A stretch of DNA of 62,474 bases, filler included, from Kipferlia bialata (taxonomy: Eukaryota), in the NCBI GenBank assembly GCA_003568945.1. It is 3 parts of 3 records of this genome, joined end to end, with 100 filler letters (N's around TTAATTAATTAA, not from the genome) between each part and the next. Parts side by side here need not be neighbours in the genome. Positions count along the whole stretch, not along the records: positions 1 to 30,277 come from BDIP01000125.1; 2 more parts are not named here. The stretch is one strand, 5' to 3'. The translations under genes and the position numbers were made by a program. The notes beneath the pieces are model-generated. The model saw nothing but the letters and a program-made list of their open reading frames with translations. It was not told the DNA's origin and searched no databases. This document shows, one piece after another, positions 60-53,193 of the stretch; the first letter of the stretch is position 1; each line of letters opens with the position of its first letter.

Positions 60-3000
60 AGCCTGCAGGTACCCACGTCCTATGCTTAACTTCTATATAT
101 TCTCCTTATGTATATACTGCACCCTCCAATCCCCCCTCTGTTCCTCTCCCCCACCCCAGACCTCCCACGGCCTTGAGTTACCTTCGTACATAAGCTTCAT
201 CCTCTAATTCTACATATACATCACACGTCCCACCCCCACCCCAGACCTCCCACGGCCTTGAGCAGCAGATACAGGGATATATATTGTATATCTAAATATT
301 TAGAGTATTCATAGTATTCATAGTACCCCTCTCTCCTATATCTATTCACTCTTTCCCACCCCAGACCTCCCACGGCCTTGAGCAGCAGAAGCACACCCAC
401 TCCGTCACTACACCCTCAGACACCCTGTCGGTCTGTGCATGTGGGGGGGTGGTGGCATCACTTAGAAGGAGGTATAGAGTACCTATACACATACATACAC
501 AGTTTTCCACCTTGTGTTTATGTTTCTTTCTCTCTTTCTTTCTCCCCCCCCCCCCTCACCCCCAGGGGTGCCACCCTCGGCAACAGACGGAGGAACAGAG
601 ACGCACTCCTGTCAAGGTATGTACATAGATCTATCTCTACACACTAATATACTATTACACCCCTCACCCCAGGGGCATCCCCCAGTCCCGTCTGATGAAG
701 CGGGGTGCTGTCCCTGTCTGTGACCTGATAGCAGTGGCACCCAGACAGAGGCACACGGTGGTGGTCAGGGAGGGACTGACTAATGTACGTACTACCTATA
801 TATCTTTTGGTTGCTAATAGTTAGTACCAAGGTTATAGTTGTAAGTATTTAGTGTAAGTACCTTGCTTCATCATAATGGTGGTCAGGGAGGGACTCACTA
901 ACGTATGTGGCAGTGTATGTATATACTATATGTATTCACCAGACCTCCCCCCACCCCCAGGTCCTAGACATTGCTGCCTGGCCCATGTCGTCCAAGAGGA
1001 TATACATACTGCAGGTATGCTATTGTATACCAACTTCTATCACTCTGTGCAATGTATACTATTCTAACCGTTATTGCATTCTATATTTCCATTGGTTCCC
1101 TCACCTCCAGGTCTCTGCCCAGGAGTCCACCTCTGACACTCTGTTCAAGGTCACAGTCCTGGTGGAGAGGCCACTCAGGCAGAAGGTATTGACAGAGCTA
1201 TATAGTATAAATAGTGTGTGTGTATGTTTATATATATTCGTATTCTAGGTTGATACGTGTGTATTGGAGAGGCCACTCAGGCAGAAGGTATTGATAGAGC
1301 TGTATATATTATACACTGTTTGTACATGTTTATGTATTAGAGAGATATGTATATATTGGAGGCCCCTCAGGCAGAAGGTATTGCGAATATGTATATTCAA
1401 GGATACATTCCTACATATTCTGTCTCTGTTGTGGGTGGAAAATGTATGATATGTAAATATACATACATTTCTTTTCCCCACCTCACCCCTCCAGGTCAAG
1501 CAGCTTGTGCAGAATGAGAGATATGGAGACGCTTTGGAGCTGGGGGCAGACCTCGATAGGTACGGTCATATATATACACCGTCCAATACCTCTCTCTATA
1601 CATATCTATGTATATATATCCCTATATCATATACATATTTATAGACGCCCTGGAGCTGGGGGCAGACCTCGATAGGTACTATTCTTTCATATACCGTTGT
1701 ATCTGATACGCATACATTTGTATATGCAATTTGTCTGATCTGGATTGATATCGTTGTATCTAACCAATCAGGTATGAGATTGCCCAGATCTATCCATGTA
1801 TAAATATCATATACCTCTGTGTCTAACCCCCCCAGGTATGAGATTGCCCAGATCAAGGTGTCCCATGCCAGAAGGGTATTCGACACACACCCGGAGGAGG
1901 TGAGGATACATTAATTCGTAATCATATACCCACATGCACTATATGCCTTCCTCTATCTGTCCACTGTGTAATACTCCTGTCACCAATATACACTCAATGT
2001 ATATATCTCTCTGTACTTTTCATATTCTCCCACGCCAGGCCCTCGAGCTGTTCCTATCCACCGTGTCAGATGGGGTCATAGAGCCAGCAGAGGTATGATA
2101 TCTGGCGAGAATGCATTTGTATTAGTATATATGGTGATTGTATTAATAATTCTATAAGTAACATAGGAGAGATAAGTATGTATTAATGGGGTCATAGAGC
2201 CAGCTGAGGTATGTTTGTATATGTATATATGTATTCATCTATAGATTTGGCAGTTGGGTCATGGAGCCAGCTGAGGTATGGTGATATGTGACTGTGTGGG
2301 TGTCTACCATATTCGTCACATTCTTTCCTCTCTAACCCCTTAGGTTGTCAAGCTGTACCTTGACTCTGGCCAGATCCCACCCTTGGTCAGATACCTCGAG
2401 AGGCTGCAGGTATCTTTGGGCATGGGTTGATAATTACTATACCATACTCTCTTCTATAGTCTCGTTAGAAGTATATACTCCAACACAATGTTGTGTTCTT
2501 AAGATAAGTATTTCAACTCTTTGGAGTAATTTTGTCTCACCCCAGGGCGAGAAGGACATTGGCGGTGGCCCCAACCTCACCATGCTCCTACTCAACAGCT
2601 ATGTCAGGAGTGAGCCACAGAAGCTAGGTATGGGGAAGTATGTTAGCTCAACATCCTCATCTCTCTCTCTCTCTCTCTCTCTTGTATTCTAGTCTGACCT
2701 CCAGTCCACTTTATCGAGTCTGCCCAGGACAAGTACATCAAGGACGCAGTCAGGGTGAGTACTGAGTATAACCATGTGTGGGGAGATATTTGTATGTTAC
2801 ATTTGTATATATTCTACCTCCCATTCCAACCATCTTACCCTCCAGAACCGTTCCAGTGCACAGGGTCAGGGACAGGCAGTCGCAAAGTGAGTGAATTATA
2901 GTTGTGTTCGTATCAGTGTGCAGAATATGTCTCTTGCCCCCCGACTTATCACACACACACAAATATATACACATTTCTACCTACCTACCCCAGGCCTGTC

Positions 3001-6000
3001 CTTGACATCGATGTGGCTGTGGAGGTGTGTGCCAGATCAGGAAAGACAGGTACAAGTGTATACTGTTGTATGTCACTCTGACCCTGAACTAACTGTACAA
3101 GGCTTGCCTGTGACCTCGCTGCCTTCTTTGATATGCGTATACTAATACTATACACTCCCTCACTCTCTATATATATACTTACATCAGGCCTTGCCTGTGA
3201 CCTCGCTGCCTTCTTTGACAGACACACCCAGGTTATGGACATACTCACTAGGACACCGGACCTGGTGCCACAGGTACATCCATATTGTATATATATATAT
3301 ATATATATTATCTGATACTGGTGCAGATATACTGATATATATACGCTGATACCGGACCTGGTGTCACAGGTACAGTCGTACAGTATATATATATATATAT
3401 ATATATCTATATATATATATTAACTGATACTGGTGTTTATATACTGATATATATACGTATACCAGACCTGGTGCCACAGGTACAGTCATACTGCATCTCT
3501 CTTTCTTCCCTTCTCTCTTTCCATATGTTTATCCCTGTGTATATCCCTCACCCCCAGGCCGTGATGTACCTGGGTACCCTCTCCCTCAAGGACTGCCACG
3601 AGCAGCTGACACCCAGGCTCAGCACGCTGCTCACACACACACCGGACCAGGTATATAGGTGTATTTGTATATGCAGTGACTGATTAACATAAATACACAA
3701 CGGATCATATTTGGTCAGCCATATATGACTGTCTTTGTGTGTATGTATTTACCTCCTTACCCACCCCAGGTCACCTCTCTGCTGAAGAGACTCTGCACCA
3801 GCTACACCCCAGACTCAGTCGGTGAGTGACCACATTAGTGTTACTGATGCTGCTCTCTGTCTCTCTATCTCTCTCTTTGTCTGTCTCACCTCCAGGCGTG
3901 CTGTCTGGCCTTGAGGTTGATGACAGGCTGTGGGGAAGGGCACTCGTCAGGAGGCACAGGTATTAGATATTGATATAAACGCAAATTCACACATATATAT
4001 ATATATCCCACATACACTATATATCTAAAGTGTGGGGCAGGGTACTCGTGAAGTTGCACAGGTACACACAGTATTGGTATATATAGTAAATGTACATTGT
4101 TCCATCTGACCGTCCCCCTCACCCTCCCAGGGCCAAGGTCCAGTGCCCTGTGGATGAGTTTGAGATAGACCTCTCGGGTCTGGCTCAGGTATATATATGA
4201 ATTTGTGGTATATACGTTGTTCATTGCAACTCATGTGAGTATATTAATGGATACTTGTGCTTATGGCCCACCGCAGGCCGGTCCCCAGGAGAGTGTGTTC
4301 AAGGGAGACCACCTCGATGCGTCATTCTGTGTGCACGAGTACCTGAGGTATACATATATATATATATATATATCTGAGGTAGCCATATATATCTGTATGT
4401 TATATGTGTAAACGAGTACCTGAGGTACAATTCATAAACAGACGTATATTCTATTGTCATATATCTATACATACCTCCTAACCCTAAGGGTGCGTGCCTC
4501 TAGAAGGGAGAGGGTCAGAAGGCAGGCCCAGGAGGCACTCGAGGCAGCTACTCAGGTATATACAAGTATAGAAATTAGCATTCACTGGATCATGGTTAAC
4601 ATGGCTCCAGACCCACCCCCAGGCCTCCGAGGGCAAGGGCCTAATCCCATCAACACATATCACTATACATTGTTAATACGTGTAATACATTAATATTATA
4701 TATATGCATTATGCCTCTAATACCCAAGGCCTCCGAGGGCAAGGGCCTGACCCCTGCCGAGGTTGCCTCTGTCACACCCTCTGCCCTGGAGGAGATATGC
4801 TCAGACACCACCCTGCTGGAGTTCCTGGTGCACGTCATGTGCTACTTCAGGTAAGGGATGCATATGTATATCCACTATATACCCACTATATATCAATACG
4901 TGTTTGTGATTTATTGTGGTAGTCTTACCATCCATGTATATACATCCATATATATACATCCCCACCCCCAGCATGTCCATGTCCAATGATGACGACACCC
5001 GCCCCCTGGACAGTGTCACAGACATGGATGCCACACAGACGGAGGGGGGGGCAAACACTAACAACGAGGTATGTATTTATATATATATATACTCATGAAC
5101 TACGCGATGACCCCCAGGAGTCTGAGGACTGGGGACTCTCTGTGCTGCTGTGGCACTACATCCTGGAGGAGCTCCTCCACCTGTGGAGTGGCCTAGGCAT
5201 GAGTGAGGGCATGAGTGAGGGGGCCCAGGAGACAGAGGAGGACAGCGAGTGTGCGCCACTCGATACAGGTGTGTATTATCGATGGCGAGTGTTGTCGTTG
5301 TATTCATATATGCATCCGTCTAACCCCCTAGGCGATGGCGAGTGGAAGCTTGAGGAGGAGGCCGACCCCTCCACGCATGTCAGTGCCCTGTCAACCCTCA
5401 GTGCCAGTGAGGGTGTCACCACACACGCTGTGCTGGACACACCCCTGCCCAGCGTCAGCATAGACCTCAACAACCCGCACAGGTGTATGCTACTATAAAT
5501 GTATGGATACATATACATAAATAGATACTTATTGTGATATACGAAGACCTCAACAACCCGCACAGGTAGACCTAGATAAGTCTCTCTCTCTCTCTCCCTT
5601 TCTCACCTCCAGTGCCAGGGACAGCTGCAGAGACCTCATCATGGCAATCTTCAAGGTATCGGTGTATGTATAGATATATAGGTTTAAATATAGATAGATA
5701 GATATGTCGACATAGATGAATAGTTGCCCTGGCGTAATACTAATCCATAGGGTGTGATCCCCGCCTCCTTTGATAAGGACCACGCCTGCATCCTGTGCAA
5801 GAGATACGACTTTGCAGACGGACTCGTGTTCCTGCTAGGTATGATAGAGTCAACATATATACACTACATAGGTACAACAGATGGATACGACACATATATA
5901 CAGTATCAGAACACAGTATATTACTCACTCTCCAGGTGCCCTTGGCCAGCACAACGAGGTCATCAGACACCACCTCAGGTATGGGTATAGTCATATATCA

Positions 6001-7985
6001 TATATATCATATTGTATCTCACTCACTGTTATACTTACACCAGGACCGGCAACCATGCCATGGTGTCCCGGATGGTGGTGGAGCACCCCAGGCTGGTGCA
6101 GGAGGTATGATACGAATATACAAATACATGTATATGCCCTATATACCTCTATGTTTTCCTTGCTCATCCTAGTTGTGGCCCGGTGTGCTTAGAGTGTATA
6201 TACACAATGTAGCAATGCCTCTAGTATTTATGCTAACTGTAGGTGTGGCCCGGTGTCCTCAGAGACAAATATCAAGAGCGATATATATATACAATTGTAT
6301 GTATATATGCTATATATACTCACCTCTAGGTGTGGCCCGGTGTCCTTAGGGACATGGTCAAGAGCGATATATATATATAGCATTGTATATATATATATGC
6401 TATATATACTAACCCTAGGTGTGGCCCGGTGTGCTGAGGGACATGGTCAAGGCAGACCTGGGGCCACTCCTCTGTGAGTCAGAGAGGTGGGGGTATATGT
6501 GTATATAACGTATATTTCCATATACATAGTATGTGTGTTCGTATTCAATTACTCCCCCTTCGCAGTGAAACTGAGGTAGGGCCAGCGTATATGCATGTAT
6601 ATTATAAACGTATTAAGAACACCCTACTCACCCCAGAGACAGGGAGAAGGGCGGCGAGGCCGGCAGGGAGAGAGAGAGAGAGAAGCAGCAGGCAGCAGCC
6701 AGACTGGGGACCACACTCCAGGTATTCCATATTCTGTATATTCTGTGTATACCATATGCATACATCTATATATTAGTCACTCACCCCCCAGGCCCTCACC
6801 GGTGCTGGTATTGCCACTGCTGTCAGTGGGATAGACCTGGTCATATCGGCATGCAACGAGGTACACATACAGTACAGTATATAGTATCTTGACACTCATC
6901 CCTAACCCCCCATGGTCCATGCTGCCTCTACCCACCTTCCCTATATAGCCATACAATATAGCATATATAGTACTCTCCTTCATTTCTTAGCCTTACAAGT
7001 AGGTCCAGGCTGCCTCAGCCCCCCCTTCATCGGACAGGAGTGGGGACTTCCCAGTCTCGATGGTGGCAGACCTCATGACCAGTGAGCTCAGGTATATATT
7101 CTCTCTCTCTCTCTCTCCATATATAATGAGTCTCTGATTCTTTATATGTATATATTGACATGCCTCACCCCCAGGATTCTGGACGATGCCATTGATCAGG
7201 CCAGACGTGACCTGGCAGACAGCACGGACCTCGTGGAGAAGGACATGGTATGATATATGTATTGCTACTTATGCACAGTGTATAGTCACTATTTATTCCT
7301 ACTCTCTAACCTAACCACAGGCCACCCTGCGCACCCTGACCACCTCGGGTGTCTATTTCTCTATACATATATATATGTGTGTGATTGTCAATGCATATGT
7401 ACACCACTCACCTTCAGGCCACCCTGCGCACCCTGACCACCTCTGGTGTGTCCTATGATGGCACCATCTGCCAGCAGTGCAACAGAGTGCTGTCCACACC
7501 AGCAGTGCACTGCAGGTGTGTAGTCTGTATGTGTAGTATTGATTCACACATTCACATATACTTTATATATGAACATGTGCATATCCTCCCACACCAGGTG
7601 TGGCCACTCGTACCACTTTGGGTGCTTCATCTCTGAGGGCGGGGAGTGCAGGACATGCGTCAAGAGACTGGACCAGGAGCCACAGAGACCGGGTCTGGAG
7701 CCTAACCCTAGGTATACAGTTGCATAGATGGGAACATAAGTGTGGTATGTGTGTTCCATTGTTCCAGTTCCTCACCCCTCAGGTTCCCCCACACCATCCT
7801 GATTGACAGACTCAGAAGGGCGCCCCTGGCTCAGGTAGGGTGATAGTGTATTTGCTGTACATTCTGAATATAGTAGGATAAACACTTCTTTCTACCACTA
7901 TATCTATCTCCTGTCTCCCCTCACCCCGTAGGCCAAGGTGCAGAGATACTCCACAGAGGACAGTGACAGTGACAGTGATGAGTAG
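60..7985 (+). CDS. VPS11: Vacuolar protein sorting 11 homolog (CORVET/HOPS core), multi-exon, 5' end lies upstream of the window
   Basis: Spliced exons give VVKLYLDSGQIPPLVRYLERLQ...NLTMLLLNSYVR...LDIDVAVEVC, which resembles the Vps11 clathrin-repeat segment (VIxKFLDxQxIxxLxxYLxxL...TxLLLNCY...FDVxxA). A C-terminal RING reads CQQCNRVLSTPAVHCRCGHSYHFGCFISEGGECRTC (7447-7660). Stop TAG at 7983-7985 after ...EDSDSDSDE. Confidence 0.88.
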
Positions 7986-8257
7986 ACGGGTGTTGGATAG
8001 GTCATGGAGTGGCTTGAGAGAGTAAATGTAAACCGTAGTCTGTTGGGCATTGTATGTCACTGTCGTGGAGCTTGTACTAATAATGTGAAAATAAGTGAAT
8101 ACATTAGTAATGTCAATGTAACAGGACAAAAATTCTGGCTTCATCCACACCCTGACACGACTGACTCAATATCTCCTATTTACTCACGATATCCTTGCAC
8201 ATTGTCATATACAGACATATGGTTCACAGTGTCTGTATCCCAAGCAACCCTCTCCAC

Positions 8258-9566
8258 TTACTTGCCGAACACAGTGTCGAGCCTGCCCTGGGGGTCCTAG
8301 GGGTGAGAGGGAGAGAGAGAGAGAGAGACCAAGAAATAGAGGGGCGAGGAGGGGGAGATAGGGACAGAAAGAGTAGCAGAGAGGGGTAGAGCATATATAC
8401 ATACCTGGAGGATAGTCTTGACGAGCATCTCCATGACATCTCCCACGATGAGGTCGCAGAACTTGTTGAAGTCAATGTGGTTGTCGCACTCGTCTGAGGG
8501 GTTAGATTATATGTATATATTTATAAATATTTATATATATGCATGACAACTTATATAAATAGTAAATACAAATATTTACACATAGATATGAGTCAATGTG
8601 GTTGTCGCACTCGTCTGGGGGGTTAGAACGGGGTGAGACGGAGTGTATGCATACTTTCATACTTACACCTCCGTAAATACATGTGTGTATATAGGTATTA
8701 ATTCATATAAACATCTACCCACCGGACACGGCACGCACAACGGCGTATGGGGCACCCCAGGTGTAGCAGACCTAGGGTGAGTGATATAGTAAATACAATC
8801 ATAGTAATTTCAGCTCAGTCATACTATTATTGACCCATTACATCTACCCTACCTGGGCCATGGCAGCCTTCCATCTCGGCCACATAGGCATACATATATA
8901 TGTGTATAAACAATACACATGAGACTACTACTCCCTCTACACATCATACCTGGGCCATGGCAGCTCCCTCCATCTCGGCCACATAGGCATCGGGGATGGC
9001 ACTCATGATGCCGTCCCTGGGGGGTGAGGGGTATAGTTACACATGTATGAAGAATATATACACAAAGACTATACACTATATACTATGTATATAGGCCCAA
9101 CCTGGTGGCTGCGGTGGCCACGAACTTGTCACCGGTGACAATGACTCCCTTGTGCACCTGGGGTAAGAGTATGCGTGTATACACTATATAAATATATATA
9201 TATATATAGTGGAGGAGTAGTTAATGAATACAGGGTATAGAACATTCACAAAAGGTACCGTAGGCAGTCTAGTGAGTGTATGTGTGTACCTTCGGGACTG
9301 TGAATACACAAATATACACAATTGCTAATTACTGATATTGTATATATAATGGTCACTGCTCCATACCTTGGGTGCTGTGATTCCGAGCTCCTCAGAGACA
9401 CCGGGCTTGGCAAGAACCTGGGGTGAGGGTGTGGGATATATCGATGCTCATATACATATTTACACTGCTGACTATATATTATGTAGACCATACGTTGATA
9501 TACATAGATATTGACATATACACGCATACACCTTCCTGAGCTCCTGGGAGGGCATTACTGTATGAT

Positions 9567-9618
<52 letters not shown>

Positions 9619-9823
9619 TCACCTTCTTGAACTCCCAACATATATACCAATGCATGTACCTTCTTGAACTCCTGGGACAGGACCAGTATCAATATATACA
9701 CACACATATATATACGAATATACATCCATACACCAATATATATATATATATACCTTCTTGAACTCCTGGGACTGGACCAGGGAGGAGGCGGCATCGAACA
9801 TGAACTGGGTCACCTCCTGGGGG

Positions 9824-9858
<35 letters not shown>

Positions 9859-10612
9859 GCCACTCAACGTACGGGCTTGACTGGGAGCCTGGCGATGTCG
9901 AGGGAGGGCAGGATGAGCTTGTCCATGAGGGGGGAGCAGTCCATGTCGTGCTGCACAAGCTCGGTGCCAATCACAATGTCACCTACAAGGTGAGGGTGGC
10001 AGGTATAGGTGTACTATATACACATGATGCACTATGGTAGTGGTGGGGGGGGGGGGGGTACATACTACACTGGGGAACCCGTACCGATCTTGCATCCGTT
10101 GAAGAGGCCACCGGCGCTGCCGACGAAGATGATGGCGTCGCACTCGTACCTGGGGGGTCAGTAAGGAGAGAAGTCATTATAACACAGTATATCTGCACTC
10201 TCTCCCACATATATAGGTATATCGTGTATCTAGATGCCCTACCTGTCAAGGAGCACGGTGGTGGAGATGGCAGCACAGACCTGGAGTGAGAGAACATATA
10301 TAGATATATATACAGAGAGATAGGGGGTACTCTGGGAGTAGAGGAAGATAGTTCAACACAGTCGACACACCTTTCCGATGTCGGACCTGCACACAGTGAC
10401 GCGCCTGTCGTAGATCTCGCCGTCAACGTAGGTGACGCCTCCGCGGACCTCCTAGAGATAAGAGGCAATGGGACAGAGTGTAGTTACAGAAAGATACGGA
10501 ACCAATCCAATCTCACGCATTCCCCCACCTTGTTGGCTCCGTCAACCATGTGGGCGATCTTCTCGTACTCCCTAGTGGTAGCGGTCATGATTCCAAGCTT
10601 GAGTCCGGCCAT
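8258..10612 (-). CDS. mtnN: 5'-methylthioadenosine/S-adenosylhomocysteine nucleosidase (PNP/UDP phosphorylase family), about 12 exons
   Basis: Spliced product reads MAGLKLGIMTATTREY...SDIGKVCAAISTTVLLDRYECDAIIFVGSAGGL...KIGDIVIGTELVQHDMD...GVIVTGDKFVA...AEMEGAAMAQVC...PYAVVRAVSD...DFNKF. This contains the GIGKV-like, GSAGGL, QHD, TGDxF, EMEGAA and RAxSD motifs of MTAN. Confidence 0.92.
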
Positions 10613-10760
10613 CTTTGATAGTCTGCAAGAGAGGGGGAGAGAGAGGTGAAGCCAGGCGTTGCGCAACCGGAAAAGGCGTTGATGCAATTACGTTGAAAAA
10701 GTTGCCCAACGTTGTCATTTTGGTTGCTCCAGACGCAACCCTCCCAAGCACTAAACCAGC
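10613..10760. promoter_or_regulatory. Probable bidirectional promoter between the MTA/SAH nucleosidase and LSm4 genes
   Basis: Two start codons face away from each other about 148 bp apart: CAT at 10610-10612 and ATG at 10761. Confidence 0.6.
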
Positions 10761-11035
10761 ATGGTAAGTGGTGTTGTGGCCCATATTGTAGGATACAATG
10801 AGTATAGAACCACCTAGTCTCACCCTCAGCTTCCCATTGAGCTCCTTTCTGGAGCCAGAGACTGCGAAGTGGTACGTATAGCGTGTCAAAGCCTCTCTTG
10901 TGTAACGCTGTTTCCTCTGTTGTTTCTCTGCTAGATGATCTTTGTGGACTTTAGTCTATCACTCACTGCCTGTGTTCCCATACCTCCCCCCTGACCCCCA
11001 GCTCCTAGAGCTCAAGACAGAGCAGACAGTCACAG
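10761..11035 (+). CDS. LSM4: LSm4-like Sm-fold protein, 5' part only (the rest is presumably in or beyond the N gap)
   Basis: Exons ATG (10761-10763) | 10830-10871 | 11002-11035 have GT/AG boundaries and give MLPIELLSGARDCEVLLELKTEQTVTG. This matches the LSm4 N-terminus pattern MLPLxLLxxAxxxPxLVELKxGETxNG. Missed by the ORF track. Confidence 0.75.
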
Positions 11036-11161
11036 GTGGGCGGCATATACATATACACACACACTCTACCTCTAGCATCTACATCAGATCTGGTTCCTGG
11101 TGTACTGCTCTGTTTATAGGGATATATTCTATGGTCGCGGCTCCTCTAGTGTTATATTGCC

Positions 11162-11193
<32 letters not shown>

Positions 11194-11208
11194 ACCCCCC
11201 TCCCTCCT

Positions 11209-12128
11209 NNNNNNNNNNNNNNNNNNNNNNNNNNNNNNNNNNNNNNNNNNNNNNNNNNNNNNNNNNNNNNNNNNNNNNNNNNNNNNNNNNNNNNNNNNNN
11301 NNNNNNNNNNNNNNNNNNNNNNNNNNNNNNNNNNNNNNNNNNNNNNNNNNNNNNNNNNNNNNNNNNNNNNNNNNNNNNNNNNNNNNNNNNNNNNNNNNNN
11401 NNNNNNNNNNNNNNNNNNNNNNNNNNNNNNNNNNNNNNNNNNNNNNNNNNNNNNNNNNNNNNNNNNNNNNNNNNNNNNNNNNNNNNNNNNNNNNNNNNNN
11501 NNNNNNNNNNNNNNNNNNNNNNNNNNNNNNNNNNNNNNNNNNNNNNNNNNNNNNNNNNNNNNNNNNNNNNNNNNNNNNNNNNNNNNNNNNNNNNNNNNNN
11601 NNNNNNNNNNNNNNNNNNNNNNNNNNNNNNNNNNNNNNNNNNNNNNNNNNNNNNNNNNNNNNNNNNNNNNNNNNNNNNNNNNNNNNNNNNNNNNNNNNNN
11701 NNNNNNNNNNNNNNNNNNNNNNNNNNNNNNNNNNNNNNNNNNNNNNNNNNNNNNNNNNNNNNNNNNNNNNNNNNNNNNNNNNNNNNNNNNNNNNNNNNNN
11801 NNNNNNNNNNNNNNNNNNNNNNNNNNNNNNNNNNNNNNNNNNNNNNNNNNNNNNNNNNNNNNNNNNNNNNNNNNNNNNNNNNNNNNNNNNNNNNNNNNNN
11901 NNNNNNNNNNNNNNNNNNNNNNNNNNNNNNNNNNNNNNNNNNNNNNNNNNNNNNNNNNNNNNNNNNNNNNNNNNNNNNNNNNNNNNNNNNNNNNNNNNNN
12001 NNNNNNNNNNNNNNNNNNNNNNNNNNNNNNNNNNNNNNNNNNNNNNNNNNNNNNNNNNNNNNNNNNNNNNNNNNNNNNNNNNNNNNNNNNNNNNNNNNNN
12101 NNNNNNNNNNNNNNNNNNNNNNNNNNNN
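11209..12128. other. Assembly gap flanked by poly-C and poly-G
   Basis: N run. Confidence 0.99.
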
Positions 12129-12131
12129 GAA

Positions 12132-12173
<42 letters not shown>

Positions 12174-13315
12174 GGGGTTATGCCAAGAAAATACATACAT
12201 AGTCAGAGCAGTTATAGATAGAGGGGGATGATGGGGGAGACAGAGAGAGAGAGACAAGAAACGTGCAGTGGCTGAATACGGGCAGATACGACGACATTAT
12301 GAGTCATATTGGAAAGAGAGAGGGTACAATCAATAGAATCAAAAGCATGAGGAGAGACAATGCACTCTGAAACTGTAGTGATGGAAGAGTAGCGGGAGGT
12401 AAGAGGAAAATGCAAACAGATGTACGGAAAGTAATAGAGATAGATAAAAGTGGATATACTATCTCCAAGAGCAGTAATGTACATATATATACCCTGAAGT
12501 GTGTATCTATGCTTTAAGTATGCATCGAATGTGGAGTGTGCGAGTTATAGAGAGAGAGAGTATCAGCGAGATAGTACAGTGCACTACTGAGTGCCTAATC
12601 AAAGCTGAAACAGACAGAATCCCACTGTCCTTGCATGAAGATATGCATAACTTATAAGTATTCCAATGAAGGCGCATGTGAAGAGAGAGTGGGTGCCTGA
12701 TATGCAATCAGTGCAAGCGTGTGAAATAGACACACATTAGTATATATCTAGTGTCCACACTAACTATATCGCGACAATACACCACCACCGTACCATTGCT
12801 GAGTGATCCTCTCTCCCCCTCTCTCTCTACCAAGACCAGTCTACCTAAAGAGTAGGCGTTTTACAGCTCACAAGTGAAGTGCTAATCCAACTGTCTGGTT
12901 TGGTGCACTGATTCAAAAACTCACTAAAGGGGCTAGCGACTTGGAGCATGGTGTGAAATGGCGCGGTGGAAACCGCACCTCAGACTGTACCTATATAGCA
13001 TCGTATCATATATATATGTATATGTATATACTGCGTCACTCTATGTTTGTTATTACTTAGAGTTCAGGCGTTCTCACCTACTCTCGAAGGGAAGTATAGG
13101 TCCTACATGGCCCAATGGGAGAAAGACACATACTAATGCTACAATACGAACACCACATGTACAAAATGTCTATTTGTTAACAATTCCACGCCATTTCCGA
13201 GCTCGGCTGATACAAAGACCCAGCCGCTAAATCAGACAATACGCTCCCTCTCTCTCTCTCTCTCTCTCTCTTCTTTCTCTCATTTGGCACGCGATACACA
13301 CGCTCACCAAGTACA

Positions 13316-13363
<48 letters not shown>

Positions 13364-13473
13364 CTCTCTGGTTCTCAGGCAAACACACACACACACCAAT
13401 AGATCACTGGTTAGTGGAAGGTAAGTACACCTGATACCACACCTGTAATGCATCTCCTAGACCCGTAGTTCCC

Positions 13474-14530
13474 TTAGTTCAGGTACTGAAGGGGCAGGTA
13501 CCAGGATAGGTACTCGGGGTCAAAGGCAAACTCAGCCTCGTCATAGTTGAGGTCAGGGATGGTGTTCATCCTGCGAGATAAGAGAATAAAGGGTGTAAAG
13601 GAAAAATAATACAAACAATACAATATATATATAATAATAAAAATACATAATAATAATAATAATATATATATATAGGATTGGATAATGAAAATCTGTCAAT
13701 ATCAATAATATATTTATTCATATTCAGTTATGGGTCTAGAGAGAGAGAGAGAGAGAGTGAGATACCTAGGTGCCTCGTGGTTCATGGTTGTGAGCATCCA
13801 CACTAATTATACTATTATACATACACTATATCCAAATATATACACTATACTATAAATATACACTATACACTACACTTTATACCTAGGTGCCTCGTGGTTC
13901 ATGGTTGTGAGCATCCATACATACAATATATAACATCATGTTGCAGATACAATTAGGGGTCTAGTGAGAGAGAGAGAGATACCTTGGGGCCTCGTGGTTC
14001 ATGGTTGTGAGCATCCATGGTGCAACGGCATAGATGCCAAGGAGAGACTGCCACTGGGTGTAAAAAGGGTGTAGAGAGAGAGAGNNNNNNNCCAAGGAGA
14101 GACTGCCACTGGGTGTAAAAAGGGTGTAGAGAGAGAGAGAGAGAGAAGGCATAGATGCCAAGGAGAGACTGCCACTGGGTGTAAAAGGGTGTAGAGGAAG
14201 AAAGAGAGAGAGAGAGTAGTACCTGTATGAACCTTGGGCTAGCTGTGTTAACATCACCCACTGTATACATACACATAATACAAGTACAATAAGGGGTCTA
14301 GGGAGAGAAAGAGAGAGAGTAGTACCTGCATAAACATTGGGCTAGCAGTGTTAACATCCCCAACAGTGGATGTGATCAGAGTGGGGGGTGTCACAGTGTA
14401 CATCTGGAGAGCGGCCCAGTTGAACTGAGGGATTAGGGGTGTAGGGGGAGAGAATCAAGGGTCTAGAGGGAGAGAGAGAAGGGTCTGGAGGAATAAAAAA
14501 TGAAACTATATATATATGTATATATATATG

Positions 14531-27150: not shown

Positions 27151-30100
27151 CCTTGCATACATATATATATATATATCCTTGCATCATTGCATGAATGGGA
27201 CTGCCTCTGCCATTGGGAGGTCATCTACCATATGTATACATACCTAAGTATATATAATATATAATATATATATATAATATGATACATATATATGTATATA
27301 TCAATACCTGAATGGAACTGCCTCTGCCATTGGAAGGTCACTGTTACCAGCCTGGAGATCAAGAGAGGCATTGGACTACACATTCAGAACTTTTCAGGCA
27401 CGCCATTGGCTACAATACACACACACATATATATGTCTATATTTATATGATTGTCTATATATTATCTATATATATATGCATATATATCCCTACCTTCCTA
27501 GGGAGTATGCCTCGATTGGCCACAAAGGCTATGTACTAATTCTCTCTCTCTCTCTCTCATTCTCTCTCTCCATATATATATCTATATATATTAATGAATA
27601 TGTACATATCCATACCTTCCTAGGCAGTATGGCCCCATTGGCCACAAAGGCCACACCCCCTGCAGACACAGTCTGGCTGGGGGTGAGATATCTACTTATA
27701 TATGGGATATATACATAGAGATTGATATGGTGGGCTATGCTATGATAAATAGGCCACACCGCCTACAGACACAGTCTGGCTGGGATAAAGGGTATGTATA
27801 TAGAGTGTATATATAGATAGAGAATGGTATGATGGTGGGAATGTGACATATGATATGGGTCACACCCCCTGCAGACACAGTCTGGCNNNNTGGGAATGTG
27901 ACATATGATATGGGTCACACCCCCTGCAGACACAGTCTGGCTGGGGGCCATTAATGTTATGTATAAGATATAAGTATATAAAATCCTACAAATGCATACA
28001 ATTCCGCTCTAACAGTACTTCTTCGCATCTCTCACTCTATGTATACCTTCTGAGCGACACTGCGTTCTCCTTGGTCCTGACACCTCTTATCCAACAACAG
28101 ATACAATAATAATATACGTATATACTACAGAAGTACTGAATAATAGTAATATATGTATATATATGTGTGTATATGTATACCTTCTGAGTGACACTGCGTT
28201 CTCCTTGGTCCTGACAGCCAGGGCACCGGCAGCGGCCTGCATTAATATATGAGTATATACATACATATATATATATAGAAAGAGAGAGAGAGGGAGAGAG
28301 AGAGATGCTTGGTCCTGACAGAAAGGGCACCGGCAGCGGCCTGGTGGTTAGTATATATATATATGAGTATATATACAGAGAGAGAGAGGTGCAAGGGCAC
28401 CGGCATATTGTTACATGTCTATATCTATCTAACAATACATGCATACTGTAAGTGAGAGTGTGTGATGCTAGGGTAGCAGCAGCACCCTGCTAGGATCTGG
28501 TGGTACAATAGCAATATAGTGTACATTCAGATGAATATGTCGGCACCCCCCATCAGTGAATATCGGCAGTCTGCCCCCTCTCTATATGCATGTAGTATAT
28601 ATACCGTATCTCCCCACACCAGCGCCCACTGCAGTGCATAGGCCACTCTCTCGCTGTCTATATATATAAATGTCAATATATATATAACATACATATAAAT
28701 ATATACATTCATACCTTATCCCCCCACACCAGTGCCCACTGCAGTGCCTGGGGCAGTCTCTCTCCCTCTCTCTCTCTCTCTCTCTCAATATATACATTCA
28801 TATCGATATATGTACCTTATCCCCCCATACTAGTGCCCACTGCAGTGCCTGGGGCAGGTGGTCACACACGCCCAGGGCAGCGGCATTGCCAGCTATGCTC
28901 CTATAGTGAGATACATATACATATATATATATGAGTAGAGAGAGAGAGAGAGAGAGAGAGCGCGAGAGAGAGAGAGAATGGTCACACCCAGGGCAGCGGC
29001 ATTGCCTGCAATGCTCCTAGCGTGTGAGACATACTAGTAACCTGATAACTATTTACATAAGTATATATAGATATGTAGATATATATATATATACATATAT
29101 ACTCTATATACCTAGCGTATGCCGTTGCCACAGAGTAGAATCAAAACCAAGACATGTATATGGTTCACATACGAATATATACCCCTCGTACGCAGGTGCT
29201 GCACTGTAGAATGAATACCAAGCCAGATAATAGATACACTTATAGTATATACCTTCCATATGCAGGTGCCGCATAGTAGAACCTGGCTGTGACTGCACCC
29301 TCAGCAGAGACAGTCACACAGGCACGCCTAAGGACCTCCTGGCCTGAAATAAGGGTGTAGAGGGAGAGAGAGAGAGAGACAGTCACACAGGCACGTCTAA
29401 GGACCTCCTGGCTTATGGGTGAGAGGGGTCAGAGGGAGAGAGAGAGTGTGTGTGTGTGTGTGAAGGACCTCATGGCCTGGAATAAGGGTGTAGAGAGAGA
29501 GTTAACCAGGCATCAGTACCACTCTATATATGAAACATACCCGGTGTGTCACTGTTGAAGTAGCCTCCCTTGGGTCCGTCTGGCTCCCTGATGCCCTTGA
29601 GGGCAGTGGACAGGTGCATGGCCTATACATAAGTATATAAGTATATTAGTATATATGTATACTCATATATATAGTATTCATTCACTGATGTCCTTGTGGG
29701 CAGTGGAAAGGTGCATGGCCTAGGGCATAAGGGTGGGTCTATACCCAACTCTATGAACATGTATACAGTAAATAGCAATCGATATACATACACTACTCTG
29801 CTGTCCTTCAGAGCAGAGTTCAATGGCGAGTCTTCAGCTCAGCAGGCTGCATTTAAGGATGTGAATATATACAAAAGAGAGAGATTTAGTCTACTCTCCA
29901 AGGTTGAAAGGTAAGTGCAGCTCTTATGCCACTTCCACATCAATGAAAAACCTAATACCATATCATACAATCACATACCAGGAAGTCTGCTGCAGCTATC
30001 CTCTGATCATCGGTGGATCTGGCCTGGGGGTGAGATGTGTGTAAAGTATAGATGTTACTATTCAGAGGAGATGAACAAATAGTGATCATGAATGTATATG

Positions 30101-30277: not shown

Positions 30278-30377
30278 NNNNNNNNNNNNNNNNNNNNNNN
30301 NNNNNNNNNNNNNNNNNNNNNTTAATTAATTAANNNNNNNNNNNNNNNNNNNNNNNNNNNNNNNNNNNNNNNNNNNN
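30278..30377. other. Artificial scaffold-concatenation spacer
   Basis: 44 N + TTAATTAATTAA (stop codons in all six frames) + 44 N = 100 bp. Identical to 53900-53999. Confidence 0.97.
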
Positions 30378-48400: not shown

Positions 48401-51400
48401 GACACTGACCTCACCTCCACCTGTGAGTGTGTGCTTGTGCCAGCCCACCTGTCCGACCTGGCCCTCTCCTGGTTCCCCTCTGTTGACACTGTAGACACCC
48501 TCGGTGTTGATGTTGGTGTGTCCTTCCCCATCTACAGCAACTGGCTGGACCCTTATGCAGGTAGTATGAGAGTATGTGTATGTAGTCGTAGTATCATATA
48601 CATCCATTGAATGTGCCATTCTCTCCCCTTGACCTATAGGCAAGGCCGAGTTCCTGGCCGTGTGGAACGAGGCTGTGCGTGTCTATTGGGCAGACTCAGA
48701 CTGCACATCCACCACAGAGGTAGGCTCATTGGCAGAGAATAGCATAGTCTGTTTGGGACACAAATAAGAATTATCCTCTCTGTCTAATCGTCAGGGCTTT
48801 GTCCAGGCCTGCAAGGACTCCCAGTTCAACATGTCTAACGTGTTCTCCGACAGTGTGTGCCAGACCATGTGCACCAACTCCCAGACCAATGCAGGTGGGG
48901 AGTATCTGTGAAGGAGTCTGCCAACCCCTTCTAATCTAACCCAGGTGTCACAACGAGCACCGACATCAACACCCTCATTGCTGCTGCCCAGACTAGGGTT
49001 GCTCCTCTCCTTACATCCACAGACCCCGCAGGACTCCTCCGGACTGCCATTGACTGGGCTCAGGTACACCCGCATTAGACACTCATTGTCTCTTGTGACG
49101 TTGACAGACCCACTACTTCACCCGCTATACTCATACACCCTCTCTCCCTCTGACTTCAGGTTGAGTTTGCTGTGTCTGTTGACGACACCCTCACTACATC
49201 AGCCGGCAGTGCCTCTGATGCAGCCATGTACAACGAGTCCGGCTTTACCATTGACATGGTGAATGACATCATGGGATACTTCAGCACCCTGGTCGGAAGG
49301 GACATCACAGTCAGGTGGGGCATGCTACATATGTGTATGGGTTAGGTTATGTCTCTTAAGTTTACCCTGACTATACACTCCATACTCCCCTCACCCTCCC
49401 AGATGGACCCCCCTGCAGAGTGACGTTGTGAGCACCTTTGCCGATGGGTACAACCCCAGGGCGTCCTGCTTCTCAGCCGGGGTGGGTGCATCCGACAGTG
49501 CCGACTCAGACTACCTAGGTGGGTGCATTAGTGTATATTATGAATGTGTCACTGAGTCACGCATGAACCCGTGTTTCCTCCTCACCGTTCAGGTGTCTTT
49601 GCTGGCGCCTCCTTCCTCCTGGATGAGATTGCAGTGGGCACTGTGTCGGTGAGTCAGGGTCTTTTGACATACATTGAAGATACCTCAATTGATCTATTCT
49701 CCCTCACGTTCTCTTATCACAGATCGATATATTGCAAGATACAAACGATGCGCCTCTCCTGGGTGACAGTGGTAGCCTACCCGCATACCTCCTCACCACC
49801 GCTGCCAACAAGGACAACGCCGAGCTTGTTGCCCTCCTAGACGGGGGGGATGTCACAGTGGTGACCGAGATGGGGGGCACTGCCATAGGGTCAGGTATCA
49901 CCAATCTCATTGGTCTGTATCCACTGCTAATGAAATAGCCTCAACGTGCCAAGTTGTCCCCCTCTGACTGCCAGTGCTTGAGGCCGCCCTGTACTGTATG
50001 CAGCTCAAGATGGAGGTCTCCTACGACTGTGCCTATCTGGGCCCTCTGCCCGAGGTGACCCCCGCCTCCTCCATGCTGGACAGCATGGGTATCGGCACCA
50101 CATCCATCGAGACCCAGCCCCTGATGGCGCCCTTCATGCCCGTGGTCCACTCAGACTATGACACAGAGGAGACATCCCTCGACCCAGACCACTCGGCTTG
50201 GGTCGGAGCAGGTAGGGGCCTATGTATGTATGTGCAAGTGACGTACTTGTGTCTATATCCGTATGTGTCATTCTTACAGAAACCCCCTGACCCATAGTGA
50301 ACCGTGCCATTGTCGAGCTCCAGTCCTTCGGCCATGTCAACAACCTGTATGTGGGGACAGTACTCAACGTCACACCTGGATACAACCCCAAGGTGGGGAG
50401 AATGTCTCATCTACCAACCGATATGCTGAAGTGTTCTACCAACCTTTCTTACCCCCCAGTCTCTCTATGCCTGGCCCGCCCTCTCCCCTGTGACTGGCAA
50501 CACCGATGACCTCCTGACACGCTTTGTCAGCACAGGTGTGGTACCCGTTGCCAGGAACACTGACCTCATCGACGACATCGGAGTCACCCTCTTCCAGGTA
50601 TCATCTGTCTCTATTATTATGATACTGACACTGATACTGGTACTGGTACTGAGTCACCCTCTTCCAGGTATAGTATCAATCGTCTTCCAGGTATTTTCTC
50701 TTCCCAAGTTGTTCGTTCTACTTGCTCATGTATGTCTCTTTGCTTACCTCAGGATGTTGTCGACTATGTCCTGTGCCACTACACCAATGACCCCACTGCC
50801 TCGGTAAGGACACATGTGGATATAGATGCTGAAACACATGAGTTATATGAGTGGATCACAAGCTCTGTGTAGATAACTCTCTGCCCAACACCTCTCTGAC
50901 TCTGCAGGCCGAGGTGCGTGTTGTGTCTGCCGGTGCCGGTGACTACACCGATGCCGAGGATGTCCTGGACCTTGTGTCCAATGGCAATGTGGCCATGATG
51001 GACAGCACAACCCTGGCAGACAGCGAGAGGTGGGGTGGGGCATTAAGGGCATTGACTCCCATTACTGTGTAGTATGCGGTATCTGACCCCAGGCGTGTTG
51101 TGTATGGGTTCACTGCCCCCATCGGCACCTCCACTCTTGTGGCACTACCTGTCAACCCAGACGGAGGTACGCAGTGTGTATACACAGTATCATGTACGTC
51201 TTGGGTATGTGTACTGTATCTGACACCCAGACACCGCTGAGTGCTGGGGCCCTGAGGCTACATCCTATCCTGAGGTCTTTGACTACTGGGTGAACTATGA
51301 CTCAGACTCCATGGACAGGTGGGGATGCGCTAGGTCCTGGGTTTGTGAATGTGGATATATACCCCCTCCTCAATCTTACCCCAGTGTGACCTATGCCGAT

Positions 51401-53193
51401 GTGGAGCACTGCCAGACCCTGGTGGTGCCTGAGTACATTTCCCCCCAGCTGCTAGAGCTGGGTCTGGTCACATCTGCCACCGGTGTTGCTGTGGAGGGTG
51501 CAGAGCCCATCGAGGTCTCCTTCCCTGTCTTTGTGCACCAGTGGTTCACAGTCGGATCAGGTATCAGACGTGCATGTTGCGAGTAACCCCGTCACTGTCT
51601 ATGTCTACCCCCCCCTCCCACCGCAGGTGTGTATGAGCTGGCCGAGGTCATGGGCATGGCCACCAGGCAGTGGCTGGCATCAGGCTGTGAGGACACGCTA
51701 GGCGATGCCACCCTATGCGGGGCTCAGGACTGGGCCGACTTCTCTCTCCCCAAGGCATACTACGGCCGTATCCAGGCCTTTGTCAGAGAGTCTGCCGCCC
51801 TCTCTGCCTTCGCCACCCTACGCGACTGGAGGATCCTCTATGGCATGTACACCGAGACAGACGCCACATACGAGTCATACGACTACCGCTCCTACGCAGG
51901 TATGGAGTGGTATCGTGACAATGTACTGTTATACTCTCTCCCCCCCCCCTTGCCCCCTGACCCCAGGTGGCCTTGAGAGCAGGGTGGCCGACAGCCTCAC
52001 CTCTGCCGTCGGGTCTCTGCTGGGCCAGCCTGACCTGACCATATCGATGGAGAACCCTAACCAGGACATCGTGTCCACCACTGCCCTGCTCGACGTCTCC
52101 CTCAACGACCTCGAGTGGTCACCCTACAGCCCCATGACATTTGGCAACGCAGTGTCTGCATCGTCCGGTACCAAGGGCATACCCCTGCCCCACATCAGGT
52201 ATTGGATGTATACACACACACACACACCATGGATATATATGCAGTACCTATTGTGCTGGTCTGCCCTCCTCCTCTCACCCCAGGTCTGAGTACAAGCTAG
52301 TCTCTGTCGCTCTGGATGCCAAGGACTTCAGCACTGTGACCAGTGTATGTACCGATGCAGCTGGGTCCCTGGTGCTCGAGGGCCTTGTGGACACTGACTC
52401 AGTGGGTACGGTCACAGCTGACACCGACGGCAACGAGCTCACCTTCTCTGCCTCCTGGGCCAAGCTGACAGACACCCTCGACTCCTCCTGTGACGCCATG
52501 CTCTACACTGAGTATGCCGCCATGGCCTGTGAGGACTGGCCCAGTGCCGATGCCTCTCTGGTGTCAACCGGTGTCTATGGCGTGATGGGTGCCACCATGC
52601 ACTCTGAGCCCAAGAACATCGCAGGCCCCGACACCGAGTACCGGTCCTTCTCCCCCTCTGCCCCTGTCCACCTACTGGGAGACCTGGCCACCATGTCTGT
52701 CGGTGTCACTGCCCCTGTTGTCGATGCCTCCACCCCGGCCTCCACCCCAGTCCCCACCGTGTCTGAGGATGGAGTCCTGTCCATCGTGTACCCAGACGGC
52801 ACGGCCTCGGACCCAGTCTCGGTCATGGGGGCTACAGGGGAGGCAGGTGCAGATGGAGCGGATGGAGCGGATGGAGCGGATGGAGCGGATGGAGCGGATG
52901 GAGCGGATGGAGTCGATGGAGTCGATGGAGTCGATGGGGCCCAGGGCATCCAGGGCATCCAGGGTGTACAGGGTATGCAGGGAGAGACCGGTGCCACTGG
53001 CGCCGCGGGCACCCCAGCCGACCCCGTCCTGTCCCTTGTGGGCATCGGGGCAGGGGGTCTGGCCCTGCTCGTGGGTCTCTTTGCGGTGGTGCATGGCTGC
53101 ATGCTCTCCTCCAAGCTCAAGAACCCCGTGCTCCGCAAGAACCCCCTTGCCTCCCCTGGGTCCCCCATGAGCCCCACAAGGAGCATTGTGTAA
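42432..53193 (+). CDS. Giant type I membrane protein: tandem periplasmic-binding-protein type 2 (SBP_bac_3-like) modules, collagen-like stalk, TM helix and short tail; 5' end missing
   Basis: Repeated SBP-like signatures: [14 protein letters not shown]...[47 protein letters not shown]...[52 protein letters not shown]. These are followed by 21 G-X-Y triplets, a hydrophobic segment [22 protein letters not shown], a basic tail and stop at 53191-53193. Confidence 0.75.
52828..53016 (+). repeat. Collagen-like (Gly-X-Y)21 segment including a 9-bp GGAGCGGAT tandem repeat
   Basis: GAT GEA (GAD)7 (GVD)3 [27 protein letters not shown]. Confidence 0.92.

What the first reader, a model, noticed from the sequence alone, without database searches (positions are those of the whole stretch)
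150..29500. Splice-junction 'echoes': introns filled with tandem copies of the adjacent exon ends plus intact splice sites
Seen directly: in Vps11, MTAN, BPI, cystatin and the ATPase gene, many introns have the same layout. The layout is exon|GT...[exon tail+GT...]n ......[...AG+exon head]n...AG|exon. Donor echoes always lie downstream of the real donor (785 to 903; 1187 to 1288 and 1378; 1560 to 1675; 2093 to 2209 and 2276). Acceptor echoes always lie upstream of the real acceptor (160 and 244 before 364; 1771 before 1835; 4622 before 4728; 6171, 6242 and 6329 before 6418). Units are about 80-130 nt. The 15-55 nt exon-derived part is well preserved while the intronic part is strongly diverged and microsatellite-rich. 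This recurs at dozens of junctions on both strands. Inference: a systematic intron-expansion process centred on splice junctions, which I do not recognise as a named element class.
Basis: seen in the sequence. Interest (0 to 1): 0.92.

Follow-up and report, generated by a model that had tools for sequence, protein, structure and literature searches.

The report
Introns stitched from two allele versions
In five genes of the free-living protist Kipferlia, over half of the introns carry spare copies of the neighbouring exon end with its splice site (a known kind of repeat, 'mirages'), and these copies differ from the exon mostly at silent codon positions, so they likely came from other working versions (alleles) of the same gene rather than from simple local slippage.

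Summary
In the first scaffold (1-30277; Kipferlia bialata), 50 of 86 modelled introns hold 94 copies of the adjacent exon end (median 27 nt). None is on the wrong side or inverted. The other two scaffolds have 2 of 100. Reassembled DNA contigs bridge 10 of 12 copies in 3500-9550 with no difference at even depth, and spliced RNA contigs skip them. Two gap-flanking copies are likely artefacts. The class is named: amphioxus 'mirages' and F7-type junction minisatellites; the scan also noted such copies in two sea-urchin windows. Polarity is forced by geometry. New here: copy and exon differ at 16.9% of four-fold sites but 3.2% of zero-fold sites, a ratio of 5.3 where a dead copy allows at most 2. 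The outermost intron parts are mostly unrelated (9 of 63 homologous; inner units 19 of 25). Dissimilar spare acceptors still keep a branch-point motif (18 of 22). Best reading (0.55): each such intron is a mosaic of two diverged alleles' introns joined by one-ended repair, then tandemly amplified. No second allele was seen, so this stays inferred.

The parts
60..7986 (+). Vps11 gene (5' part outside the window); 37 introns modelled, 14 with echoes, 21 echoes
   Evidence: P0001 named Vps11, partial, Kipferlia bialata, contig length 30277; Pfam PF23356 E=1.8e-13; model equals P0001; counts
69..364 (+). Intron with two acceptor echoes (160-177, 245-269); its upstream 9-nt exon 60-68 is my assignment
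1186..1494 (+). Intron with two donor echoes (1265-1287, 1359-1377); spacer 1 is homologous to spacer 2, spacer 2 is not homologous to the rest of the intron
6105..6418 (+). Intron with three acceptor echoes (6174, 6243, 6330); four sequence versions differing mostly at third codon positions; bridged by one DNA contig and absent from the RNA contig
7248..7417 (+). Single acceptor echo 7321-7352 (31 of 32 identical, one silent change) between two unrelated intron 3' ends, each with a branch-point-like motif and AG
8257..10613 (-). MTA/SAH nucleosidase-like gene; 11 introns, 3 with echoes, 5 echoes; RNA joints use exon-adjacent sites
   Evidence: stop-free frame; one 22-aa exon returns only MTA/SAH nucleosidases in PDB but at E 0.6-0.9, so the name is weakly supported; joints
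13474..21866 (-).
   Evidence: stop-free 22-exon frame; no Pfam hit for 4 single exons
22334..23342 (-).
   Evidence: no Pfam hit for 2 single exons
23910..30023 (-). ABC-class ATPase gene (PF09818), modelled part; 14 introns, 13 with echoes, 31 echoes
   Evidence: PF09818 E=3.2e-7, 8.8e-4 and 1.2e-4 on three exons
23965..24673 (-). Longest echo array: four donor copies (24582, 24474, 24371, partial 24246) with homologous 103-125 nt units, plus one acceptor echo (24097)
   Evidence: not tested against reads
14037..14139 (.). 48-nt exact duplication flanking a 7-N gap; likely scaffold-overlap artefact, dropped from counts
27836..27941 (.). 51-nt exact duplication flanking a 4-N gap; likely scaffold-overlap artefact, one copy dropped from counts
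30278..30377 (.). Artificial spacer between scaffold A (echo-rich) and scaffold B (echo-poor control)
   Evidence: P0001's contig is 30277 nt
50598..50752 (+). Only echo at threshold in scaffold B (donor, 17 of 17 nt at 50651-50667)
55218..55371 (-). Only echo at threshold in scaffold C (donor, 17 of 17 nt at 55287-55271)

Best explanation
These introns carry real, spliced-out spare copies of the adjacent exon end, and each such intron is likely a mosaic of the same intron from two diverged working alleles, joined by a one-ended repair event and later amplified in tandem. Steps: (1) Inferred: alleles (or homeologs) of these genes diverged about 10-14% at silent sites while their TA/CT-rich introns became unalignable, leaving ~65-nt exons as the only islands of homology. 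(2) Inferred: a break in or beside an exon is repaired from the other allele; synthesis runs across the splice junction into that allele's intron, finds no homology to re-anneal, and is joined by microhomology back to the exon interior. The product is exon, truncated intron a, exon-end copy, complete intron b. (3) Shown: the part beyond the echo has normal intron length and the spacer is shorter; the two are mostly unrelated. (4) Shown as a pattern, mechanism inferred: once a direct repeat exists, unequal exchange copies the whole unit, giving homologous inner units. (5) Shown for the stretch tested: the dominant mRNA uses only the exon-adjacent sites, so the echo is intronic; its non-silent differences look like neutral decay. 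(6) Inferred: events that leave an acceptor echo upstream of a donor echo, or that duplicate sequence inside an exon, are removed by selection.
For: Four-fold sites differ at 77 of 456 (16.9%) and zero-fold sites at 53 of 1642 (3.2%), a ratio of 5.3; a dead copy beside a conserved exon allows at most 2 (counts not deduplicated across array members). 78 of 140 unique differences are synonymous, against a ceiling of 0.40 (p=1.2e-4; junction bootstrap 0.51-0.68). Single-echo junctions give 45 of 72; differences shared by all echoes of an array give 10 of 10. Non-synonymous differences are GC>AT-biased (32:12, p=0.004) and no more conservative than random (p=0.31), whereas synonymous ones are symmetric (27:29): two layers, coding divergence plus later decay. 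Spacer homology is found in 19 of 25 inner comparisons and 9 of 63 terminal ones (p=6e-8) at similar exon-part divergence; only 1 of 15 terminal cases with a perfect exon copy is homologous. 22 of 42 echo acceptors are as unlike their own real acceptor as unrelated acceptors are, yet 18 of those 22 keep YTNAY against a background of 14% (p=3e-12). In 22 single-echo introns the rest has median 87.5 nt against 91 for echo-free introns (p=0.88), and the spacer 63.5 (p=7e-4). Far ends continue the spacer's dinucleotide repeat more than a realigned null (p=0.013). All 16 introns with both echo kinds have donors before acceptors. DNA contigs bridge 10 of 12 echoes in 3500-9550 with 0 differences at depth 402-460, and the stretch has no repeated 30-mer. 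The published draft genome of the species shows two k-mer peaks, read as diploid (PMC5874029, passage).
Against: No second allele was seen: the DNA run shows no other letters in 3500-9550 (contigs drop variants), and two metagenome scans found no relative. Allelic divergence is therefore inferred only from the echoes. 9 of 63 terminal spacers are homologous, so plain local duplication also occurs. In amphioxus mirages, boundary units are reported to escape homogenisation (PMC3087553, passage), which can give an inner/terminal contrast without alleles. Homologous inner spacers decay to about 55-90% identity while their exon parts mostly stay above 90%, so the detection limit for intron homology is close. 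Echo presence does not depend on exon length within scaffold A (p=0.13), which gives no support to the short-homology-island step. The 3 MTAN differences are all non-synonymous. More than 60 founding events in 30 kb, against about 2 per 100 introns elsewhere, are unexplained. Only 12 of 94 echoes lay in the stretch tested against reads.
Confidence: 0.55

Rival explanations
1. An old local duplication persists as a presence/absence polymorphism, and crossovers inside the shared exon-end repeat with unexpanded alleles keep refreshing the echo and the outer intron part from working alleles. The allelic signature is the same as in the best explanation, but founding is by ordinary duplication.
For: Explains the silent-site excess, the intact outer branch points and the unrelated terminal spacers equally well. 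Mirage copy number differs between amphioxus haplotypes (PMC3087553, passage).
Against: Needs repeated exchange within 12-64 nt of homology at dozens of loci, and long-lived polymorphism. No length variant is visible in the DNA contigs (weak evidence).
Confidence: 0.15
2. Ordinary sister-chromatid or slippage tandem duplication across a junction (classic mirage); AT-rich microsatellite spacers then decay much faster than the GC-rich exon copy, and boundary units escape concerted evolution.
For: Whole-unit tandem arrays exist (19 of 25 inner units); 9 of 63 terminal spacers are homologous; spacers decay faster than exon parts; far ends lie in dinucleotide tracts; scaffold A introns are the most microsatellite-rich (22% against 6% and 15%).
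Against: Cannot give a four-fold/zero-fold ratio above 2 (observed 5.3). Does not explain acceptors that are unlike the real one yet keep the branch motif (18 of 22), or 14 of 15 perfect exon copies with unrelated intron parts. Purely intronic tandem copies, which should be common, were rare (that scan is insensitive in low-complexity DNA).
Confidence: 0.15
3. Assembly artefact: two haplotypes with conserved exons and divergent introns were linearised into one scaffold.
For: Silent-site bias, intact intron ends and a full-length 'rest' are what a second haplotype would show. Two echoes are exact gap-flank duplicates. The DNA run may be the source of the assembly. 82 of 94 echoes were not tested against reads, many of them beside long (CT)n tracts.
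Against: The run's contigs carry the same letters across 10 of 12 echoes at even depth, with no repeated 30-mer in the stretch that could join haplotypes. 0.99 of 1014 sampled 31-mers of 60-9550 are held. Arrays hold up to four or five versions. Echoes carry a stop codon, lost GT/AG and GC>AT decay.
Confidence: 0.07
4. Insertion of an intron-end module copied from another intron, with a long target-site duplication across the junction (introner-like).
For: Spacer unrelated to the rest of the intron. In the BPI-like gene, different introns share 26-50 nt near-identical (CT)n-branch-acceptor ends.
Against: A target-site duplication starts identical, so it cannot give the silent-site excess. No new intron is made. 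The shared ends are mostly microsatellite plus consensus; no dispersed element family was found, though none was sought genome-wide.
Confidence: 0.04
5. Echoes are kept by selection because they are used as alternative coding ends or as recursive splice points.
For: Silent-site bias. Echo donors score as well as their real donors (27 of 42 equal or better). Exons with donor echoes end in AG more often (28 of 31 against 38 of 55, p=0.03, one of several tests). A few acceptor echoes are followed in frame by GT.
Against: RNA contigs skip every echo visible in the output. Use of an echo site would retain the spacer. Non-synonymous changes look neutral. Acceptor-echo exons are not enriched for GT starts (9 of 34 against 15 of 52).
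Confidence: 0.04

Closest known systems
Amphioxus 'mirages' (Adh3, globins BflGb6/9, TnC, PGBD5; PMC3087553 and PMC3902484, passages read; the original Adh paper PMC117041 is not held and was not seen)
   Same: Tandem copies spanning an exon-intron boundary, at both 5' and 3' boundaries, many with GT/AG, without disturbing normal splicing; boundary units escape homogenisation.
   Different: Reported gene by gene in an animal, with whole units 81-100% alike (BflGb6) and the mechanism called unclear. Here they occur in a metamonad protist, in 50 of 86 introns of five neighbouring genes, mostly as single copies whose intron parts are unrelated, and with a silent-site excess that the passages read do not report.
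Human junction-spanning minisatellites: F7 IVS7 (37 bp), CBS IVS13, 6-16, LMNB2, PDGF (PMC1557585, abstract and passages read)
   Same: The first unit spans the exon-intron boundary; silent pseudo-donors lie downstream; the most upstream donor is used.
   Different: Near-identical many-copy VNTRs at single loci, donor side only in the passages read, with 4 bp of exon in F7. Here 12-64 nt of exon, both sides, 1-4 copies, diverged.
[quoted passage not shown]
   Same: A single duplication of a donor junction.
   Different: 403 bp, a single human disease allele that disrupts splicing; the copies tested here are skipped.
Intron gain by tandem genomic duplication (PMC3265369, abstract read; Rogers model as cited in PMC3087553)
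   Same: Local duplication that includes splice signals changes gene structure.
   Different: Creates a new intron from exonic AGGT; here existing introns lengthen and no new intron was shown.
MMBIR / template switching and one-sided invasion (PMC4888836, passages read; one-sided invasion seen only as a reference title, its mechanism is recalled)
   Same: A 3' end copies a nearby or homologous template and rejoins by microhomology, leaving a duplication.
   Different: Described for larger rearrangements; no direct test here that this pathway made the echoes.

Membership tests
Mirages (junction-spanning minisatellite-like duplications) | Head-to-tail copy spans an exon-intron boundary and lies in the adjoining intron | tested here: met
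   84 anchored plus 10 decayed copies, 0 wrong-side, 0 inverted
Mirages (junction-spanning minisatellite-like duplications) | Both 5' and 3' boundaries can be duplicated | tested here: met
   31 donor and 35 acceptor junctions among 86 introns
Mirages (junction-spanning minisatellite-like duplications) | Many copies keep GT/AG, yet normal splicing is undisturbed | tested here: met
   GT 39 of 42, AG 36 of 42; RNA contigs skip the echoes in the laid stretch; rare isoforms are not visible in contigs
Mirages (junction-spanning minisatellite-like duplications) | Whole unit, intronic part included, is a recognisable repeat | tested here: inconclusive
   Met for 19 of 25 inner units, not met for 54 of 63 terminal units; hence filed as a variant
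Mirages (junction-spanning minisatellite-like duplications) | Copy-number polymorphism between haplotypes, somatic instability | not testable with these tools
   One sample, contigs only
F7-type VNTR | Five or more near-identical monomers with identical pseudo-sites | tested here: not met
   1-4 copies per junction with diverged spacers
Introner-like elements | Insertion creates a new intron in exonic sequence | tested here: not met
   All copies lie inside existing introns of stop-free models; the definition is recalled
Introner-like elements | Dispersed family of near-identical inserts | tested here: inconclusive
   Only (CT)n-acceptor ends recur within 800 nt; no genome held
Mutually exclusive duplicated exons | Whole exon copied with both splice sites | tested here: not met
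   Copies cover 14-79% of the exon, median 43%

The most novel reading that the evidence does not exclude
Kipferlia introns grow by allele capture: repair between highly diverged alleles overshoots the exon, grafts part of one allele's intron beside the other's, and leaves a fossil exon end. Each echo is then a preserved fragment of an extinct allele and each intron a layered record of past alleles. The same process would explain mirages in other highly polymorphic species such as amphioxus and sea urchin, and the strict use of exon-adjacent sites would show exon definition in a reduced, short-intron spliceosome.
Probability: 0.35. Interest if true: 0.82.

Novelty: new variant of a known kind. 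Interest (0 to 1): 0.62.

Why it matters
The origin of mirages was called unclear (PMC3087553). Here about 90 cases in 30 kb allow statistics, and they give a testable signature (silent-site excess, unrelated but intact intron ends) that points to exchange between diverged alleles. The test can be run at once on amphioxus or urchin haplotypes. Echoes account for most of the extra intron length in this region: 18,495 intron nt in 86 introns, about 10,750 above a 90-nt norm (this includes one long echo-free first intron). They are also a natural experiment in splice-site choice. Spare sites as strong as the real ones are skipped in favour of the exon-adjacent pair, in a species reported to keep 87 of 174 spliceosomal proteins and no recognisable snRNA candidates (PMC6679479, passages). 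That favours exon definition over the shortest-intron rule expected for ~90-nt introns (inference). In practice the copies mislead gene prediction: my own gene finder called several as exons.

Tried and rejected
No whole genome is held, so there is no genome-wide count. Only the stretch 3500-9550 was compared with sequencing runs; echoes in 60-3500 rest on word sharing and one RNA loose end, and those beyond 9550 are untested. Run X2 is only guessed to be RNA; its GT-AG joints argue that it is. Metagenome scans with P0001 (40 pattern matches, none confirmed) and with a 21-nt acceptor motif (0 matches) found no relative. A full-length P0001 search returned only itself. Pfam gave nothing for most single exons, so the BPI and cystatin names are unconfirmed. 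My first Vps11 model had a 10-nt exon at 6566-6575. P0001 and the RNA contig length (622 nt between 5480 and 7417) reject it, and it looks like a decayed donor echo. Searches used that first model, which also lacked intron 69-364; searches use the corrected one, and the synonymous count is unchanged at 78 of 140. Recursive splicing was rejected as a general rule. A link to short exons within scaffold A was not found. The first microhomology test (p=0.0006) was biased by alignment extension; the realigned null gives p=0.013. Nine paper searches listed no report of such copies in a protist. In the main text of PMC5874029, 'duplicat', 'tandem', 'microsatellite', 'allel' and 'haplotyp' occur 0 times; its supplements were not opened, and PMC117041 and PMC4385179 are not held. 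Earlier scan notes: none in this genome.


Full report
Setting. The window is three scaffolds joined by N-spacers at 30278-30377 and 53900-53999. One exon of the first gene matches P0001, named Vps11 (partial) of Kipferlia bialata on a 30,277-nt contig, which is the length of scaffold A. I modelled five genes in A and three control genes in B and C (the nucleoporin-like control model is imperfect, with 2 stops and 1 non-GT-AG intron). All five genes in A read without stops when only the exon-adjacent splice sites are used.

Observation. Aligning each exon to its flanking introns, at a threshold that 0.34% of 7148 non-adjacent pairs reach, finds 42 donor echoes, 42 acceptor echoes and 10 decayed same-side copies in 50 of 86 introns. 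None lies on the wrong side and none is inverted. I dropped three hits: two exact duplicates flanking short N gaps and one 12-nt hit. B and C have 2 of 100. The exon-derived part has a median of 27 nt and covers a median 43% of the exon. Echo-bearing introns have a median of 267.5 nt against 92. All 16 introns with both kinds have donors first. The polarity needs no special process: in any head-to-tail copy of a junction, the copy continuous with the whole exon is the working one.

Is it real? Run X1 holds 0.99 of 1014 sampled 31-mers of 60-9550 and may be the source of this DNA. On 3500-9550 its contigs cover 3500-4342, 4383-7088, 7129-8296 and 8341-9550 with 0 other letters, 0 gaps and depth 402-460. 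They bridge 10 of the 12 echoes there. The stretch has no repeated 30-mer, so a path through it cannot have jumped between haplotypes; the novel junctions are in the sequenced molecules. This is one sample, and 82 of 94 echoes remain untested. Run X2 behaves as spliced RNA. Its pieces start at the real acceptors 4729 and 7418. It holds 622 nt between 5480 and 7417, exactly the echo-free exon sum. MTAN joints 8493-8723 and 8769-8948 skip echoes. Two loose ends match the real exon ends, not the echoes, at introns 3274-3557 and 9418-9753. Contigs hide rare isoforms.

What the copies show. (a) Silent-site excess. 78 of 140 unique differences between echo and exon are synonymous. A dead copy gives 0.25, and a dead copy beside an exon that changes only silently gives at most 0.40 (p=1.2e-4). 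Four-fold sites differ at 16.9%, zero-fold sites at 3.2%. Non-synonymous differences are GC>AT-biased and not conservative; synonymous ones are symmetric. So the echo diverged first as coding sequence and decayed later. (b) Unrelated intron parts. The spacer before a copy is homologous to the next unit in 19 of 25 inner comparisons, but to the remainder of the intron in only 9 of 63 terminal ones (examples). (c) Intact intron ends. 22 of 42 echo acceptors are unlike their real acceptor, yet 18 of them keep a branch-point-like YTNAY against 14% background. (d) Lengths. The part beyond a single echo has normal intron length, and the spacer is a shorter piece. (e) Far ends tend to continue a dinucleotide tract (p=0.013).

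Mechanism. Points (a)-(d) fit an intron made of a truncated piece of one allele's intron and the whole of another's, with the exon end present once from each. The likeliest route is one-ended repair or template switching between diverged alleles: synthesis overshoots the exon into non-homologous intron and is closed by microhomology. MMBIR passages are in PMC4888836; applying them here is my inference. Later unequal exchange between the two exon ends amplifies the unit, which explains homologous inner spacers and the 10 of 10 silent differences shared by all copies of an array. Selection would remove products that make a pseudo-exon or disturb an exon. Against this: no living second allele was seen, 9 of 63 terminal spacers are homologous, spacers decay quickly even when homologous, exon length does not predict echoes, and the concentration in scaffold A is unexplained. 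An old duplication refreshed from unexpanded alleles predicts the same signature (0.15). Plain slippage fails on (a) and (c) but surely made some copies (0.15). Haplotype misassembly predicts (a)-(d) too, and is excluded only for the tested stretch (0.07).

Splicing. Echo donors score as well as their real donors (27 of 42 equal or better); echo acceptors are slightly weaker (17 of 42; p=0.04). Skipping them suggests that sites are paired across the short exon rather than across the shortest intron. This is inferred from contigs of two genes.

Comparison. The class exists: amphioxus 'mirages' (PMC3087553, PMC3902484; passages) and human F7-type minisatellites (PMC1557585; abstract and passages). 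This scan noted similar copies in two sea-urchin windows (unchecked AI notes). The echoes meet three tested mirage features; whole-unit similarity is met only for inner units; polymorphism is untestable here. Nine searches listed no protist case, and the main text of the species' genome paper does not contain 'duplicat' or 'tandem'; its supplements were not seen. That amphioxus and sea urchins are highly polymorphic is recalled, not tested.

Verdict. Real, a new variant of a known kind. It is notable for its density and for a mechanistic signature that can be tested in other species. Interest 0.62.

Noticed in passing
window 1-30277 versus 30378-62474: Scaffold A genes have 11-15 introns per kb of coding sequence against 6-7 in B and C, shorter exons (65 versus 110-115 nt) and more microsatellite in introns. 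The echo-rich region is also the intron-dense region.
   Followed up: partly
window 23910-30023 (-) and 8257-10613 (-): An ABC-class ATPase (PF09818) and an MTA/SAH nucleosidase-like gene carry 14-15 introns per kb. These families are mainly prokaryotic (recalled); if they were laterally acquired, all their introns are gains, which bears on the view that Kipferlia introns are ancestral.
   Followed up: no
window 23400-23910 (-): The ATPase model stops at 23910. A short possible continuation at 23512 runs into a (CT)18 tract and then into acceptor echoes of the cystatin-like gene. This may be a mis-join or a lost 3' part.
   Followed up: no
window 14060-17810 (-): Different introns of the BPI-like gene share near-identical 26-50 nt 3' ends of (CT)n plus branch and acceptor motif, more alike than in other genes; possibly conversion between neighbouring introns.
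   Followed up: no
window 22619-22734: A purely intronic 53-nt tandem duplication in the cystatin-like gene, one of very few not tied to a junction.
   Followed up: partly
window 6566-6575, 9288-9305, 56302-56320, 57782-57800: Weaker, below-threshold echoes, including two in scaffold C; the counts given are therefore lower bounds.
   Followed up: partly
echo-free introns, all scaffolds: A YTNAY motif lies within 16 nt of the AG in 104 of 131 introns, a branch point close to the acceptor as recalled for Giardia and Trichomonas.
   Followed up: partly
window 42432-53193 (+): A 46-exon gene for a protein of over 2000 aa with a short collagen-like GAD repeat and a hydrophobic segment near the C-terminus; one exon gave no Pfam hit.
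   Followed up: no
window 54715-62413 (-): One long reading frame that by eye joins kelch-like, coiled-coil, kinase-like, HECT-like and C-terminal cysteine-rich segments; three exons gave no Pfam hit.
   Followed up: no
window 34680-39622 (+): FG-repeat, nucleoporin-like gene with a 75-nt coding tandem repeat at 37373-37642.
   Followed up: no
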